From a virus, in the IMG/VR virus record IMGVR_UViG_3300046003_007336, positions 134,513 to 198,512 of that record: a DNA stretch of 64,000 bases. One strand, given 5' to 3'. Below the pieces are notes generated by a model that saw only the letters and a program-made list of their open reading frames with translations, had not been told where the DNA came from and searched no databases. Made by a program: the position numbers and the translations under genes. Position 1 is the first letter of the stretch. Each line of letters begins with the position of its first letter. Shown here in pieces: positions 2,487 through 16,352 of the stretch.

Positions 2487-3151
2487 TGGATATCGTCAAT
2501 CGGCGGCGTGCGCCACTCTGTCTGGAGCCACCGTTGGTCGGCCCGGCTCTTTTCGTCGAAGTGGTCACTCCCCGCTGTCTCCTCAAAGGTGAACTCTGAA
2601 CCGAGTTCGATGTGCTTGAGACGAACGTTAGACCAGCGATAGTAAAAGAGGTCGCGATCATCGAGCCTGAATACGAATGGCCGGATATACTGTTCGGAGA
2701 TCGAGTATTGACGCTTCTCACCAATAGATGGTGTCACGGTGCCGCGCCAGATGTCGTATATCCGTTTGCCATCCTCGGTAAAGACGGGGCGGAGGGCGGA
2801 GAGGAAATGCCCGGCGATGCGGCCACGAGGAAGTCGGTAGACGCTCTGGGTGGTCTTGGCGTATTCGAACAGCCCCTTGGTCGTTCGGGACACCACGACG
2901 TGTTGTTTTGGAAGAGTGATTGAAAGGGGGATACGGATTTCGTCGCGGTTCCACCGCTCGGCGGCTTCCCGGCCAGTCAGTTCGTTCCGGTTCTCGGCCA
3001 CAAGTGGTCCATCGCAGCAATTCGGCCGCGAGCACGAGACCCGCATGTTTATTCTGCTATAACTGTTGCCGGGTGCGAACGCCGAAGCCAGTCCCGGATA
3101 ATTGCCGCACCACGGGCAGGCGTTCATCACTGGCTTGATCTTCGGATACAT
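2483..3151 (-). CDS. hypothetical protein with N-terminal Lar-like Zn finger
   Basis: CPWCG...C..P.CC..GP...EAAERWNR resembles the Lar restriction-alleviation pattern. Confidence 0.55.
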   Translation of the reverse strand: MYPKIKPVMNACPWCGNYPGLASAFAPGNSYSRINMRVSCSRPNCCDGPLVAENRNELTGREAAERWNRDEIRIPLSITLPKQHVVVSRTTKGLFEYAKTTQSVYRLPRGRIAGHFLSALRPVFTEDGKRIYDIWRGTVTPSIGEKRQYSISEQYIRPFVFRLDDRDLFYYRWSNVRLKHIELGSEFTFEETAGSDHFDEKSRADQRWLQTEWRTPPIDDIQ

Positions 3152-3157
3152 CTTCCG

Positions 3158-3185
3158 GGTCTACCACACCGAATATACATGTCAA
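3158..3185 (-). promoter_or_regulatory. sigma70-type promoter, leaderless start
   Basis: TTGACA-N16-TAGACC, 6 nt before ATG 3151. Confidence 0.65.
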
Positions 3186-3187
3186 GC

Positions 3188-3219
3188 AAAAGAAAAGGGC
3201 CGCCCTTTCGAGCGGCCCC
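3188..3219 (-). terminator. terminator after major capsid gene
   Basis: GGGGCCGCTC-GAAA-GGGCGGCCCT followed by TTTCTTTT on minus strand. Confidence 0.9.
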
Positions 3220-3244
3220 CTCTTACCATCAGTAAGAACTGGTC

Positions 3245-4456
3245 TTAGATGAAGGTCAGGTTGGCGGTGTTGATACCGACCAGACCCAGGTAGTCAGCAG
3301 CGTTACCCAGCGAGTTCGCCGTGTTGGTCAGTTCGACGTAGCCGTAGCGCGTCATGAACGAAACAACCGGTTCCATCGTGTTGGGGTCGATGACGACGCC
3401 CGACGAGGTCAGCGGCACGTAGGGGCAGTAGAACGCGGCGGCGTCCATTTCGTTGCCCTTGTAGCCGACCAGAACCGGGGTTCCGTCCGAAGCGTACTGG
3501 TCAACGTAAACGCGCATCGTGTTGTTCAGGGTGCCGACGAACTTGGTGTTGGTCGGAGCCTCGAACACGCCTTCCGTGGTGCGGGCGAACGCCGAAGTGG
3601 TCGCCGACTGGAGGACGGTCAGAGCGGTCGGGGAAACGACAACCCAGTTACCGGCGCCACGACGGGTGCGGGCGGCGATCAGGTTGGCCTGACGGTTGAT
3701 CAGGATGGCCAGAGCAGCGTGAACGTCACCAACGAAGGTCGGGGTGCCGGTCTTGGCGTTCTGGTCGAACGTCGCGGTCGGAGCACCCGGCAGGGCGCGC
3801 AGCGAGACGAGGATTTCCTGGTCGATCTCGGCGGTGATTTCCTGAGCGAGGGCGCCCATGATTTCAGCCTCGATGTCAATGCCCTGCTGAGCTTGGGCGT
3901 CCTGGGCAGCTTCGAAGGTCCAGCGAGCCGCGAGCTTGCGGGTCTTGGCTTCAACAACTTCCTTCAGGATTTGGATGGAGATACGGTTACCCGCACGACC
4001 TTCCAGAGCAGCCGTCACAGCAGCCTTCGGGTTGGCGACGTTCTCGTTACCCGAGTAGTAGCGGGCGATGTCGAACGGCGACAGAGCTTCCGAACCAGCG
4101 GTCACGCCCGAGCCGTTCGTGGGAACGGTGTCGGCATAGCGAACGCGCAGGGTGTGGATTTGGGCAACCGGACCCGTCATCGGCTGGACGCCGATGATTT
4201 CGTTGGCGATGACGGTCGGCATGACGCGGCGGATAACCGGCAGGATGACCTTGTTCAGCGTGGCAACGTTGGCGGCCGAGGTGGCGCCCGAGGTAGCGGT
4301 TTCCATCAGAGCACGGCGGGTGTTATCCAGCACGGTCTCCATGATCTTCTTCTTGTTCGCGTTGAGCGAACCGTCGAAGTTGTGGGTCAGGTCGTTGCCT
4401 TCGCAAAGAGCTTGCTTGGTCGCCTGCCACTGGGATTCAAAAAGGTTCTTAGACAT
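3245..4456 (-). CDS. major capsid protein (T4 gp23-like)
   Basis: VQPMTGP, RKLAARWTFEAAQDA, AFYCPYVPL, FMTRYG motifs; strong codon bias. Confidence 0.95.
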   Translation of the reverse strand: MSKNLFESQWQATKQALCEGNDLTHNFDGSLNANKKKIMETVLDNTRRALMETATSGATSAANVATLNKVILPVIRRVMPTVIANEIIGVQPMTGPVAQIHTLRVRYADTVPTNGSGVTAGSEALSPFDIARYYSGNENVANPKAAVTAALEGRAGNRISIQILKEVVEAKTRKLAARWTFEAAQDAQAQQGIDIEAEIMGALAQEITAEIDQEILVSLRALPGAPTATFDQNAKTGTPTFVGDVHAALAILINRQANLIAARTRRGAGNWVVVSPTALTVLQSATTSAFARTTEGVFEAPTNTKFVGTLNNTMRVYVDQYASDGTPVLVGYKGNEMDAAAFYCPYVPLTSSGVVIDPNTMEPVVSFMTRYGYVELTNTANSLGNAADYLGLVGINTANLTFI

Positions 4457-13783: not shown

Positions 13784-14262
13784 CGAAACGTATATCCGAC
13801 AGCGAAATCTACGTCTCAGTCCCAGTTCCGAAGTCGATGGTTTCGGAGATGGGGGACCTCATGGCCGAGTTCTATCCAGGCCTACGCATCAACGAAGTCA
13901 GCACCACTATGCTGGCTTTGCTCTTGCTCTCAAGGGGAGACAACGTTGAGTGGATGCGTGGCATGGTGGATGAAATCAACCTGCCAAACTACGAAATCGC
14001 CGCCCGAGAACATCCCGTGGAAGTAGAGGGCAACACGACCGCCAATCTGGGTAAAATTCTATGGTGCGCTCAGAACGCATCTGCGGGATGGAGCTATCGG
14101 TTCGTTAGAAAACGTCGGAGGAATGCCGAACTCGTCACGGTCGGCCATGTTGAGTTCAGCTTCACCGAGCCCCTCGACGTATCGAAGTTTTTCTTCAGCT
14201 TCACGGACGCAAAGCCTATCGACTCTTCTGAATCTCTTCGATGTGGATACCAGCAAGGTTGA
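13780..14262 (+). CDS. hypothetical protein
   Basis: ATGA overlap with upstream frame; 160 aa. Confidence 0.65.
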   Translation: MTKRISDSEIYVSVPVPKSMVSEMGDLMAEFYPGLRINEVSTTMLALLLLSRGDNVEWMRGMVDEINLPNYEIAAREHPVEVEGNTTANLGKILWCAQNASAGWSYRFVRKRRRNAELVTVGHVEFSFTEPLDVSKFFFSFTDAKPIDSSESLRCGYQQG

Positions 14263-14605
14263 GATGACGCCGGACGTGCGTGCATCGCCATCCTGGCTTA
14301 TTGTTGGCCAACGTCCGATATAGCTCAAGGACCGACTGCAAGCTGGCGTCCTTGCATCGCCACGTTCCGTTAGCCTGATTGACCACCAGATTGGAATCGC
14401 CGAGGAACTCGACGTCCGGGTAGCCGCACTCATCGGCGAGTGTGGCAGCCATCAGAAGGGCCAGCCACTCCGCCTTGTTGTTCGTGCCGTGGTCGAGGCG
14501 ATAGTGAACCACTTTCTTGGCGATGCCGGGTTGGTCTGGCACGAACACGCATGCCTCCATGGAGCCGGGGTTGGGCTGGCAGCCGCCGTCGAAGTAGATT
14601 TTCAT
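14216..14605 (-). CDS. rnhA: ribonuclease HI-like protein
   Basis: YFDGG..PNPG, TNNKAEW.AL, GDSNLVVNQ.NG.W motifs; TGATG coupling at 14605. Confidence 0.9.
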   Translation of the reverse strand: MKIYFDGGCQPNPGSMEACVFVPDQPGIAKKVVHYRLDHGTNNKAEWLALLMAATLADECGYPDVEFLGDSNLVVNQANGTWRCKDASLQSVLELYRTLANNKPGWRCTHVRRHLNLAGIHIEEIQKSR

Positions 14606-14841
14606 CAGAAGTTTTGGAGTTCCTGACCGCGCTTGGTCTTGATAAAATACTGATGACACTTCGCAGTGGTGTGCATCTTGGTGACGGAGACGCCGGGCCT
14701 CACCTCGGTGGTGACCAGATACCGGTCTCCTACAATGCAGCCGTTGGCGAAATAGTCAACCGCCGACAGGCTGGCCACGCATATCGCGACCACGAATCCG
14801 ACTGCCACCAATGTGGCAATCCGGTCGTCTTTGTTCTTCAT
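14605..14841 (-). CDS. small membrane protein
   Basis: N-terminal hydrophobic helix; coupled to neighbours. Confidence 0.65.
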   Translation of the reverse strand: MKNKDDRIATLVAVGFVVAICVASLSAVDYFANGCIVGDRYLVTTEVRPGVSVTKMHTTAKCHQYFIKTKRGQELQNF

Positions 14842-15095
14842 GGCCGGGCCATTTTTCTGACCGCCCGAGCCTGCGCTTTCGCGGCCTCGCGCATGTAATC
14901 CCGAGCCAGCTTCGGGGCCTTTTCCTTCACATATGTGGATGGCGTGTGGCGGCCGGGGTCATCCTTGAGGAGACGCTTCTTGTAGAAACCACCGCGACCA
15001 TACTTGACCGCCTGCTGGACGTCCGCAGGAGCAACCCCACGAACGCCAGCTTCGATTTTCTTGACCTCGCCACCACGAGCCAGGAACTCCGCCAT
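14838..15095 (-). CDS. hypothetical basic protein
   Basis: MAEFLARGGEVKKI...; start chosen just downstream of the upstream gene's stop. Confidence 0.55.
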   Translation of the reverse strand: MAEFLARGGEVKKIEAGVRGVAPADVQQAVKYGRGGFYKKRLLKDDPGRHTPSTYVKEKAPKLARDYMREAAKAQARAVRKMARP

Positions 15096-15103
15096 GTAGT
15101 CGG

Positions 15104-15889
15104 TCAACGGCGCGCACCCCGGATGTTGTTGACGCCCGTGGCGTCCCGGTTTCGAGCACCCCGCAATCCCGGAGGCGCACGGTCGCCCTGCCGGAGCGGC
15201 GGGTCGGTCAGGCGCAACAGGTAGTCGGCTTTTTCCTGATAGCGGAACTCGACGCCCCATTTGTTCCGGTCATTGCTTTCGCCCTCGCGAATGATGCAGA
15301 CATTCCACTTCGCGTCAGTGGGCAGAACCCCATGCAGCTTGATCGGCACGGCGTTGTAGGCCGAGCGCACCGCCTTGCCGTCATCGACCACGACTGCTCG
15401 GTTGACGAGTTGGACGTGACGCTTCACCCGCCCATCGTGGGGCTGAATGAGGGTGATGGGCCCAGAGGTCTTTTTCATCATGTCCTCGGCTTGCGAGCGA
15501 TGCGTCCGAACCATCTCGACCACGAGGGCACGACGGGTCGCCGGATGCAGGGAGACGGTGTTACCGACTGCGCCCAGCAGCAGCTTCGTGCGCTCGTCGA
15601 GGCTCGACCGTCCGTTCTCATCAAAGAGATAGGCGCGATAGGGCTCCAGGGTCTTCGGAAGGTTGTCCGAGGTCAGCGACGAGATCGAGACGCCCAGCGC
15701 GGCCATTTCACCCAGAAGGGCTTCATTGATGGTGGCGAAGATTTCCGGCGACGTGCGGAGCCACGGGGCGAACCCGGCCAGAACACCGTTGTAGTAAGAA
15801 ATCTCGTTGCGGATGAAAGAGCGCAGCCGGGGCTTGTCGTCCGGGGCAACCTCTGCTTCAAAAGTCCATCGTGATGGCATATGCGCCAT
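15104..15889 (-). CDS. hypothetical protein resembling the N-terminal half of TnpB, no RuvC
   Basis: By-eye alignment to TnpB N-terminal F..L..YN..L pattern and IKLH..L..WxV pattern; GGAG RBS. Confidence 0.45.
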   Translation of the reverse strand: MAHMPSRWTFEAEVAPDDKPRLRSFIRNEISYYNGVLAGFAPWLRTSPEIFATINEALLGEMAALGVSISSLTSDNLPKTLEPYRAYLFDENGRSSLDERTKLLLGAVGNTVSLHPATRRALVVEMVRTHRSQAEDMMKKTSGPITLIQPHDGRVKRHVQLVNRAVVVDDGKAVRSAYNAVPIKLHGVLPTDAKWNVCIIREGESNDRNKWGVEFRYQEKADYLLRLTDPPLRQGDRAPPGLRGARNRDATGVNNIRGARR

Positions 15890-15947
15890 AGTGTTTCTCC
15901 AAATATGAGAGCATCATATCCAGCGAGACCTCCGAAAAGCAAAATGT

Positions 15948-16352
15948 TTAGGGGTTGGGCTTCAGGGTGTTGGCCTGAATGCGGGCCGATATCCATTTGT
16001 TGAACGACAGGGGGTCCAATAGGGCATGTGAGACCATGATCTCGTAGGTTTCCCAGTAGGACATCTCGGATTTGGAAGCACAAATCCGCAGAACCGTTCG
16101 GGTGAAATCGTCGGGGTTCAGGGTGACCAGGGCTTTGAGTTCATCCGAGGAGCCGTAGTATTTGGGCCAGTCGGATGCCTTCTGGGAAATCCGGCGCCGT
16201 TTCTTGCCCTTTAGGGGTGGCTTGGCCACGCGGTTCCAGAAAATCTTCTTGCCGATATAATACATCCCGGTAGAGATTTGCTCAATGCGATAGATGAAAC
16301 CAACCGCATCTTCAGGGGCCTGCGTAAACTCTTGGCCATCATACATCCACAT
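15948..16352 (-). CDS. GIY-YIG family endonuclease
   Basis: GFIYRI...YYIGKK, YYGSS; TAAATA 5 nt upstream. Confidence 0.85.
   Translation of the reverse strand: MWMYDGQEFTQAPEDAVGFIYRIEQISTGMYYIGKKIFWNRVAKPPLKGKKRRRISQKASDWPKYYGSSDELKALVTLNPDDFTRTVLRICASKSEMSYWETYEIMVSHALLDPLSFNKWISARIQANTLKPNP

What the first reader, a model, noticed from the sequence alone, without database searches (positions are those of the whole stretch)
15104..15889. TnpB-like protein that ends where the RuvC nuclease should start
WTFEAEVAPDDKPRLRSFIRNEISYYNGVL aligns without gaps to the TnpB N-terminal pattern (Y.F.L.P...Q...L...FG..RFVYN.AL). KRHVQL...VVDDGK...IKLHGVLP...WNVCIIRE...KWGVEF parallels the TnpB segment (IKLHRPL...IKSVTISR..GKWYVSI) that precedes RuvC-I. 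The ORF then ends in a short basic tail, with no GIDLG motif, no Zn finger and no tnpA nearby. It has its own promoter and RBS, so it looks domesticated rather than decayed. Inference: a WED/REC-only RNA-binding or RNA-guided DNA-binding factor, unlike TldRs, which keep a dead RuvC. The orphan structured RNA at 1487-1830 is a testable but unproven partner.
Basis: inference. Interest (0 to 1): 0.7.

Follow-up and report, generated by a model that had tools for sequence, protein, structure and literature searches.

The report
Nuclease-less TnpB recognition lobe, giant phage
A giant T4-like phage keeps, as an ordinary conserved single-copy gene, only the DNA/RNA-gripping front half of TnpB (the transposon ancestor of CRISPR-Cas12) with no cutting half, so an RNA-guided nuclease scaffold has probably been re-used as a non-cutting nucleic-acid-binding protein whose job is still unknown.

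Summary

The protein stops at the WED/RuvC boundary with a conserved cap and a disordered basic tail. There is no RuvC, zinc finger or TnpA here, nor in two complete sister genomes.

It is not a decayed gene. It belongs to an unnamed family of at least 111 clusters, all under 346 aa. The family is single-copy and syntenic in ~340-470 kb T4-like phages, and dN/dS is about 0.1 in one clade.

Sequence similarity to TnpB is not significant, so descent from TnpB rests on fold and topology.

I found no RNA partner. One sister clade has a large conserved RNA just downstream, but cultured Sinorhizobium phage Phosso keeps that RNA's core without the protein, and this window has the protein without the RNA.

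A small nuclease gene (PDDEXK_15, or here a short SegE-type GIY-YIG) almost always lies upstream, and RNase HI often downstream.

Best reading: a protein-only DNA or junction binder in replication/recombination.

This scan has noted similar half-TnpB genes in other genomes.

The parts
15107..15889 (-). CDS of the 261-aa stand-alone TnpB-like recognition lobe (stop codon at 15104-15106)
   Evidence: ORF list and sequence. Family of 111 representative clusters. AF2 model with pLDDT 92, pTM 0.86. TnpB/Cas12 fold matches.
15851..15871 (-). WED strand beta1 (residues 7-13)
   Evidence: DSSP on the model. VIA alignment of model 2-218 to TnpB 1-174. TnpB WED is residues 1-12 plus 117-176.
15473..15838 (-). 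REC-like helical insertion (residues 18-139, six helices). Near-invariant E29 and N34 lie in the first helix.
   Evidence: In TnpB the REC domain is likewise inserted between beta1 and beta2 of WED.
15200..15442 (-). WED strands beta2-beta7 (residues ~150-216) plus a conserved C-terminal cap (Y223...D229, 'DYLLRLTDPP')
15410..15424 (-). K156-R157-H158-V-Q160 motif at the REC-to-WED beta2 junction. Q160 is invariant in 92/92 sequences; K, R and H are each kept in at least 84/92.
   Evidence: The equivalence to TnpB Q121/T123/N124 (target-strand phosphate contact and TAM read-out) is inferred from position in the fold; it was not superposed residue by residue.
15107..15199 (-). Disordered basic tail (residues 231-261, pI 12) in place of the RuvC/TNB nuclease lobe
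   Evidence: pLDDT falls to 43-70. Charge figures. Relatives have tails of variable length and median net charge +4.
15897..15900 (-). GGAG ribosome-binding site
   Evidence: Read from the sequence. The same GGAG spacing is seen in six relatives.
15951..16352 (-). Context: short SegE-type GIY-YIG nuclease (134 aa, catalytic domain only), directly upstream on the same strand, in the slot that holds PDDEXK_15 in most relatives
   Evidence: Pfam SegE_GIY-YIG at 2.6e-28. It is the only copy in 198.5 kb. It is 81.5% identical to the copy in L094, where the neighbouring WED/REC proteins are only 48% identical.
14219..14659 (-). Context: RNase HI-type gene (probable start at 14605), the usual downstream neighbour of the family
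   Evidence: Pfam RVT_3/RNase_H. An RNase H gene follows the family gene in L004, L086, L094 and the L074 clade.

Best explanation
Shown: the gene encodes a stand-alone copy of the TnpB/Cas12 recognition lobe. This is a seven-stranded WED beta-barrel with a helical REC domain inserted between strands 1 and 2. It ends at the point where TnpB continues into its RuvC nuclease, and carries a short conserved cap and a disordered basic tail instead. It is a single-copy, syntenic gene under purifying selection in giant T4-like phages. It sits in a replication/recombination gene block (gp46-like, resolvase-like PDDEXK_15 or a GIY-YIG nuclease, RNase HI, baseplate and portal).

Inferred: it is a non-catalytic nucleic-acid-binding protein. 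It would use the WED-REC cleft, which in TnpB holds the TAM DNA duplex and the start of the RNA-DNA heteroduplex, to recognise double-stranded DNA or a duplex/hybrid junction. The invariant KRHxQ motif at strand beta2 would make the key contacts and the basic tail would add non-specific affinity. I think it most likely acts without a guide RNA, as a DNA- or junction-binding accessory factor of phage DNA replication, recombination or gene control.
For: - Fold: the AF2 model has pLDDT 92 and pTM 0.86, with topology beta1, six helices, six strands.
- Foldseek against the PDB puts TnpB, Cas12f, Cas12n and Fanzor almost exclusively among the hits at E<0.1 (the exception, 2vrw_B, has probability 0.09). 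The match to 8ex9_A, the RuvC-unresolved TnpB, has target TM 0.57.
- TnpB WED is residues 1-12 and 117-176 and REC is 13-116, so the match covers the whole recognition lobe and nothing else.
- The family is real and has a constant size: 111 clusters at E<=1e-3, none longer than 345 aa. Profile searches of 114-604 and 605-2000 aa find no longer form.
- There is one copy in each of G000, G001 and G002, and no RuvC, TNB or TnpA Pfam match in them.
- dN/dS is 0.08-0.12 in one clade.
- Synteny holds from 22% to 48% identity.
- The proteins are basic: pI 9.8 here, family median 9.4, with a basic tail.
- Against an obligate RNA: genes are tightly packed around it here and in most lineages. The window gives no Rfam hit at gathering score, and the held 198.5 kb no match to the sister-clade RNA model. 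Phosso has the sister-clade RNA core but not the protein.
Against: - No sequence-level link to TnpB: hhalign E 0.22, and no hit in Pfam, PHROG or the PDB by sequence. Common descent therefore rests on fold and topology.
- Nothing here measures binding. Which nucleic acid is bound, and whether binding is sequence-specific, is inference.
- The placing of KRHxQ at the TAM/phosphate-contact position was not checked by residue-level superposition.
- In 7 of 7 contigs of one sister clade a conserved structured RNA module starts about 30 nt after the stop codon, so an RNA partner cannot be excluded for that clade.
- Timing of expression is unknown, because no promoter was recognised.
Confidence: 0.6

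Rival explanations
1. Targeting subunit of a split nuclease. The WED/REC lobe supplies recognition, and a separately encoded small nuclease next to it (PDDEXK_15 in most lineages, a short GIY-YIG here, or the RNase HI downstream) supplies cleavage in trans, taking the place of the RuvC lobe.
For: - A small nuclease gene lies directly or within one gene upstream in nearly every context. PDDEXK_15 fills that position in L004, L006, the L074 clade, L085, L086 and L095, and is one gene away in L001.
- Where PDDEXK_15 is missing, a SegE-type GIY-YIG occupies the position: the window, L094 and L096.
- The window's GIY-YIG is the only copy in 198.5 kb. At 134 aa it has only the catalytic domain.
- An RNase HI gene, which has an RNase H fold like RuvC, follows on the same strand in many lineages and overlaps the stop codon in L004 and L086.
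Against: - All these phages share gene order by descent, so adjacency may only be inherited synteny.
- PDDEXK_15 is a widespread resolvase-like phage gene (T5 D14 type). It also occurs in Phosso and SCTP-2, which have no match to the family profile, and in the PA5oct group and Campylobacter phages, where tblastn with four family members found nothing.
- The GIY-YIG gene is 81.5% identical between two phages whose WED/REC proteins are 48% identical, and it sits at slightly different places. That pattern fits a mobile homing endonuclease.
- No interaction was tested.
Confidence: 0.15
2. RNA-guided (TldR-like) DNA-binding protein whose guide RNA is encoded elsewhere in the genome, for instance the structured RNA candidate at 1487-1830.
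For: - The fold is that of an RNA-guided protein family.
- In Cas12f dimers the second protomer often has only its WED/REC part ordered, as in chains of about 194-200 residues such as 9nzp_B and 7wju_B.
- In the L074 clade a conserved RNA module with covarying hairpins begins right after the gene in 7 of 7 contigs. The region is more conserved than synonymous sites of the gene.
- Phosso, which lacks the protein, also lacks that 5' module.
Against: - In TnpB the RNA scaffold binds a surface formed by WED and RuvC, and the heteroduplex channel needs RuvC. Half of both is missing here.
- There is no non-coding space beside the gene in the window, L001, L004, L006, L085, L086 or L096.
- The covariance model of the sister-clade RNA finds nothing in the window, including 1200-2100 with filters off, or in the rest of the genome.
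- The window gives no Rfam hit at gathering score, and at E<=1 only a chance-level ctRNA_p42d match (25.8 bits against a gathering score of 50).
- The core of that RNA exists in Phosso without the protein.
- The 1487-1830 RNA is absent at DNA level from two complete genomes that carry the protein.
Confidence: 0.12
3. Decoy or counter-defence protein. It would be a mimic of the Cas12/TnpB recognition lobe that soaks up host crRNA or omega-RNA, or competes for PAM/TAM sites, to blunt host type V CRISPR or TnpB-like systems.
For: The fold mimics the RNA- and PAM-binding half of type V effectors. Phages are known to use partial mimics of defence components (general knowledge, not tested here).
Against: - The gene holds a fixed syntenic position in a replication/recombination block, is single-copy, diverges deeply (down to 21% identity) and is under strong purifying selection. 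That profile is typical of a housekeeping phage gene, not an arms-race accessory gene.
- It has no detectable sequence similarity to any Cas12 or TnpB that it would mimic.
Confidence: 0.06
4. The fold resemblance is convergent or reflects a very old shared module. On this view the protein is an unrelated OB-fold-plus-helical-bundle DNA-metabolism factor, or even a relic of the module from which TnpB was built, and not a TnpB derivative.
For: No significant sequence similarity. No family member of any length carries a RuvC domain. The REC part is larger than in ISDra2 TnpB (about 120 against 104 residues, six helices against four).
Against: - The shared topology is unusual: a helical domain inserted between strands 1 and 2 of a seven-stranded barrel.
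- hhalign's best local alignment is in structural register and pairs the near-invariant Asn of both families, N34 with N33.
Confidence: 0.07

Closest known systems
IS200/IS605 TnpB (ISDra2 TnpB; PDB 8H1J, 8EXA, 8EX9; PMC10097598)
   Different: No RuvC nuclease, no TNB zinc finger, no adjacent omega-RNA, no transposon ends and no TnpA. There is no significant sequence similarity. The REC domain is larger. The gene is single-copy and vertically inherited in a phage, not mobile.
TldR, TnpB-like nuclease-dead repressors (bioRxiv 10.1101/2023.11.30.569447)
   Same: Both are nuclease-less relatives of TnpB kept by selection. Some TldRs are carried by phages.
   Different: TldRs keep the TnpB fold and RNA-binding interface, with a mutated or C-terminally trimmed RuvC, and have an adjacent guide RNA. 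This protein lacks the entire nuclease lobe and has no adjacent RNA.
Second protomer of Cas12f dimers (e.g. PDB 9NZP chain B, 7WJU chain B, 8DZJ chain B)
   Different: In Cas12f that protomer still has a RuvC domain in its sequence and acts as part of a dimeric nuclease.
Unnamed phage protein A0A345MN37 (280 aa, BFVD)
   Same: Same fold over the full length (TM 0.72/0.67, rmsd 3.1, E 2e-12, 20% identity). It is probably a family member.
   Different: It has no name or function on record, and I could not place its genome.

Membership tests
TnpB (IS200/IS605 OrfB) | WED beta-barrel with the REC helical domain inserted between beta1 and beta2 (the recognition lobe) | tested here: met
TnpB (IS200/IS605 OrfB) | Significant sequence match to the TnpB N-terminal family (Pfam PF12323) or to TnpB profiles | tested here: not met
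   No Pfam hit for the protein or for 92 relatives. hhalign against an InsQ-type profile gives E 0.22. A PDB profile search finds no TnpB or Cas12. The TnpB profile I could build was narrow (10 sequences).
TnpB (IS200/IS605 OrfB) | RuvC domain with the D-E-D triad (Pfam PF01385) | tested here: not met
   The ORF ends at the WED boundary. There is no PF01385 match in six frames of G000, G001 or G002, while the controls do match.
TnpB (IS200/IS605 OrfB) | TNB zinc finger (Pfam PF07282) | tested here: not met
   One Cys in the protein. No PF07282 match in G000, G001 or G002.
TnpB (IS200/IS605 OrfB) | Transposon context: TnpA, element ends, and an omega-RNA overlapping the 3' end | tested here: not met
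   No Y1_Tnp. The gene is single-copy. The next gene starts 8 nt after the stop. No Rfam hit.
TldR (nuclease-dead TnpB repressors) | Retained TnpB fold including the RuvC scaffold and RNA-binding interface, plus an adjacent guide RNA | tested here: not met
   The whole nuclease lobe is absent. There is no adjacent non-coding DNA. TldR definition.
Unnamed family of stand-alone recognition lobes in giant T4-like phages (alignment A2) | About 220-345 aa with E29, N34, KRHxQ and Y223 conserved, and syntenic between a resolvase-like nuclease gene and RNase HI/baseplate genes | tested here: met
   phmmer E values of 1e-49 down to 1e-4 against 110 other clusters. Conserved columns. Synteny.

The most novel reading that the evidence does not exclude
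The recognition lobe is one half of a split, modular targeting system. It would work in trans with the small nuclease encoded beside it (PD-(D/E)xK, short GIY-YIG, or the RNase H-fold enzyme downstream) and, in some lineages, with a large structured RNA. That would make it either a new architecture of targeted nuclease or a living picture of the parts from which TnpB/Cas12 was assembled (WED/REC gene followed by an RNase H-fold gene).
Probability: 0.15. Interest if true: 0.9.

Novelty: new variant of a known kind. Interest (0 to 1): 0.68.

Why it matters
TnpB is the ancestor of all Cas12 enzymes. The domestications known so far (Cas12 subtypes, Cas12k, TldR, Fanzor) all keep the two-lobed protein. 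A conserved, selected family made of the recognition lobe alone shows that this half can fold and be useful by itself. It offers a very small (~230 aa) natural scaffold for DNA or RNA recognition. It also raises a testable question about where TnpB came from, because the gene is often followed by an RNase H-fold gene. I found no paper describing such proteins in three literature searches (a fourth failed). tblastn with four family members found none in 50,697 deposited phage genomes, so the family is known only from metagenomes.

Tried and rejected
- **Sequence annotation.** Pfam, PHROGs and a PDB sequence search of the protein gave nothing. A PDB profile search with 92 relatives gave only chance hits. 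Pfam scans of all 92 relatives gave scattered single hits.
- **Profile comparison with TnpB.** hhalign against an InsQ-type TnpB profile found only the N-terminal 31 residues, E 0.22. A forced global hhalign was meaningless.
- **Search for a form fused to RuvC.** phmmer over all lengths found nothing above 345 aa. Profile searches of 605-2000 aa and 114-604 aa found none.
- **Deposited phages.** tblastn of four family members against 50,697 phage genomes gave no match.
- **Decayed tnpB.** Rejected, because of family size, constant length, single copy, synteny and dN/dS.
- **RNA partner.** Rfam at gathering and at E<=1 on the window gave no relevant hit; the only match was a chance-level ctRNA_p42d. 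blastn of the sister-clade spacer against the window gave nothing. Covariance model R1 of the 5' RNA module found nothing in the window, in L001-L006, in the rest of G000, or in 1200-2100 with filters off. By eye there is an 'AGATCG...GGATGTAG' resemblance in the 1487-1830 candidate, but the model does not support it. The 1487-1830 DNA has no match in G001 or G002.
- **Conserved small partner ORF.** The small ORFs downstream of the gene are not homologous between lineages.
- **Tool failures.** The ESM Atlas look-up and one literature search failed. One contig look-up was not sent.

Full report
**What is there.**
On the minus strand, 15889->15107 (stop at 15104-15106), lies a 261-aa ORF. It has a GGAG ribosome-binding site 8-11 nt before the ATG. 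It is packed between two genes. Upstream, 58 nt away, is a 134-aa SegE-type GIY-YIG nuclease gene (15951-16352). Downstream, 8 nt after the stop, is an 85-aa ORF with a borderline SutA RNAP-binding-domain match (14841-15095). A 78-aa membrane-type ORF and an RNase HI-type gene follow. The window is 57% G+C and belongs to a T4-like phage with portal gp20, capsid gp23 and T4 baseplate matches. It is part of a 198.5-kb IMG/VR record that CheckV rates 44% complete, which implies a genome of roughly 450 kb.

**Sequence searches.**
The protein has no hit in Pfam, PHROGs or the PDB by sequence. It is nonetheless not an orphan. phmmer over 1.84 billion representatives finds 111 clusters at E<=1e-3, all 345 aa or shorter and most 220-300 aa. 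In an alignment of 92 of them, Q160 is invariant, and E29, N34, K156, R157, H158 and Y223 are kept in 84-91 of 92 sequences. All end in a short, variable, basic tail.

**Structure.**
AlphaFold2 with that alignment gives a confident model (mean pLDDT 92, pTM 0.86). It has strand 7-13, six helices between residues 18 and 139, six strands between 158 and 216, a well-ordered cap to about residue 230, and a disordered tail.
- Foldseek against the PDB returns ISDra2 TnpB first (8exa_A, E 2.3e-4). Nearly every further hit at E<0.1 is TnpB, Cas12f, Cas12n, Cas12m, Cas12k, Cas12g or Fanzor; the exception (2vrw_B) has probability 0.09. Against the TnpB chain in which only WED and REC are resolved (8ex9_A), the target-normalised TM-score is 0.57.
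- The TnpB structure paper defines WED as residues 1-12 plus 117-176 (a seven-stranded barrel) and REC as 13-116, inserted between beta1 and beta2. The match is therefore to the complete recognition lobe and ends where TnpB's linker to RuvC begins.

**Sequence-level relation to TnpB.**
I built a small TnpB profile from E. coli InsQ and viral relatives. It pairs the near-invariant N34 with the invariant N33 of the TnpB set. But E is 0.22, so it is not evidence by itself. Membership in TnpB by sequence is therefore not met. Relatedness rests on an unusual shared topology.

**Not a fragment, not mobile.**
- No family member of any length has a nuclease domain.
- Six-frame searches that read through stops find no OrfB_IS605, TNB or Y1 transposase in this record. 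They also find none in two complete sister genomes, G001 (462 kb, terminal repeats) and G002 (465 kb), while the control genomes do match.
- Each of the three genomes has exactly one copy.
- In the one clade with close enough pairs, dN/dS is 0.08-0.12; dS is saturated, so this is rough.

**Context.**
Across relatives from 48% down to about 22% identity, the gene keeps the same place in giant T4-like phage contigs (92-465 kb). It lies near gp46-like, baseplate and portal genes. It is usually transcribed divergently from a PDDEXK_15 gene and often followed by RNase HI. PDDEXK_15 is PHROG 244, annotated elsewhere as a Holliday-junction resolvase or T5 D14-like.

In the window PDDEXK_15 is absent. 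The genes that flank it in relatives are present (win_116, win_171), and the short GIY-YIG gene occupies the slot. The same replacement by a SegE-type gene is seen in L094 and L096.

The window's GIY-YIG is the only copy in 198.5 kb. It is 81.5% identical to the L094 copy, although the adjacent recognition-lobe proteins are only 48% identical. I read this as a mobile homing endonuclease. Even so, the constant presence of a small nuclease next to the gene keeps a split-nuclease model alive.

**RNA partner.**
The window offers no non-coding room next to the gene, no Rfam hit at gathering score (at E<=1 only a chance-level ctRNA_p42d match) and no tRNA.

In one sister clade (seven IMG/VR contigs) the gene is followed within about 30 nt by three things: a hairpin, an invariant 23-nt element that itself forms a hairpin, and about 1.15 kb of ORF-free DNA conserved in blocks. 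The region has covarying stems and an EGFOA-like core (36.1 bits, against a gathering score of 37.7). A marine relative has an 863-nt ORF-free, strongly structured spacer at the same place, with z = -9.6.

Three results argue against this RNA being a general partner:
- A covariance model of the 5' module finds nothing in the window, in six other loci or in the rest of this genome.
- The cultured Sinorhizobium phage Phosso (PV764938.1) has, between its resolvase and RNase HI genes, an unannotated 1-kb ORF-free gap. That gap is homologous to the core of the RNA. Yet its 469-kb genome has no match to the protein family, although the same query matches in G000-G002.
- Most lineages have the protein with no adjacent spacer.

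The RNA and the protein are therefore separable. One small hint remains: Phosso also lacks the 5' module that abuts the gene wherever the gene is present. The RNA candidate at 1487-1830 shows no link to any of this.

**Mechanism.**
In TnpB the TAM duplex sits in the WED-REC cleft. Q121, T123 and N124, at the start of WED strand beta2, contact the target-strand phosphate and the TAM. The RNA scaffold and the heteroduplex channel both need RuvC. The phage protein keeps the cleft, and has its only invariant motif (KRHxQ) at the start of beta2. It is basic (pI 9.8, family median 9.4) and adds a basic tail.

I therefore favour a protein-only DNA or junction binder acting in the replication/recombination block (confidence 0.6 for the package). 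The fold and the domesticated status are much firmer than the function. The rivals are a split nuclease, an RNA-guided binder, a decoy, and a convergent or ancestral module; each is scored separately.

**Novelty.**
Three literature searches found no description of a RuvC-less, recognition-lobe-only TnpB relative (a fourth failed). TldRs keep the RuvC scaffold. tblastn with four family members found none in 50,697 deposited phage genomes, though BFVD holds one unnamed look-alike.

This scan has already noted similar 'half-TnpB' genes in other genomes, including giant T4-like phages. Those notes are unchecked and were not used as evidence. I found the sister-clade RNA before reading them. My Phosso result bears on the note that proposes an RNA-protein particle.

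Noticed in passing
L097 (Sinorhizobium phage Phosso PV764938.1) 2981-3994, minus strand; also L074:5835-7003, L075, L076, L081: A large (~1-1.15 kb) ORF-free, block-conserved region with an EGFOA-like core lies between the resolvase/recognition-lobe genes and RNase HI. It is unannotated in a cultured phage, so it could be tested by RNA-seq. In the L074 clade it is more conserved than synonymous sites of the neighbouring gene.
   Followed up: partly
window 15951-16352 (-): A short SegE-type GIY-YIG protein (134 aa, catalytic domain only), the sole copy in 198.5 kb. It is 81.5% identical to the copy in L094, far more than the neighbouring genes, and sits where relatives have PDDEXK_15. It is probably a mobile homing endonuclease.
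   Followed up: partly
window 14841-15095 (-): An 85-aa basic protein whose first 20 residues match the SutA RNA-polymerase-binding domain, right at Pfam's cut-off (29.5 against 29.3 bits). It may be a phage RNAP-binding factor. It is not conserved next to the gene in other lineages.
   Followed up: partly
window 14219-14659 (-) and L074:7004-7420: In the RNase HI-type proteins the usual last catalytic Asp motif (N..AD) reads NLAG in both phages. This was seen by eye only.
   Followed up: no
L090:16705-17154 (G000 about 76105-76554); tRNAs in L089-L091: The phage carries a permuted, alphaproteobacterial-type tmRNA (95 bits) and at least 14 tRNA genes, which points to an alphaproteobacterial host.
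   Followed up: no
L095:5751-6613: A marine (TARA) relative has an 863-nt ORF-free spacer right after its recognition-lobe gene. It contains very long perfect hairpins and folds with z = -9.6. It is not similar to the L074-clade RNA model.
   Followed up: partly
L001:11154-12681, L006:11426-12762: The portal (gp20-like) genes of related phages are interrupted by an intein (Portal_T4 / Intein_splicing / Portal_T4).
   Followed up: no
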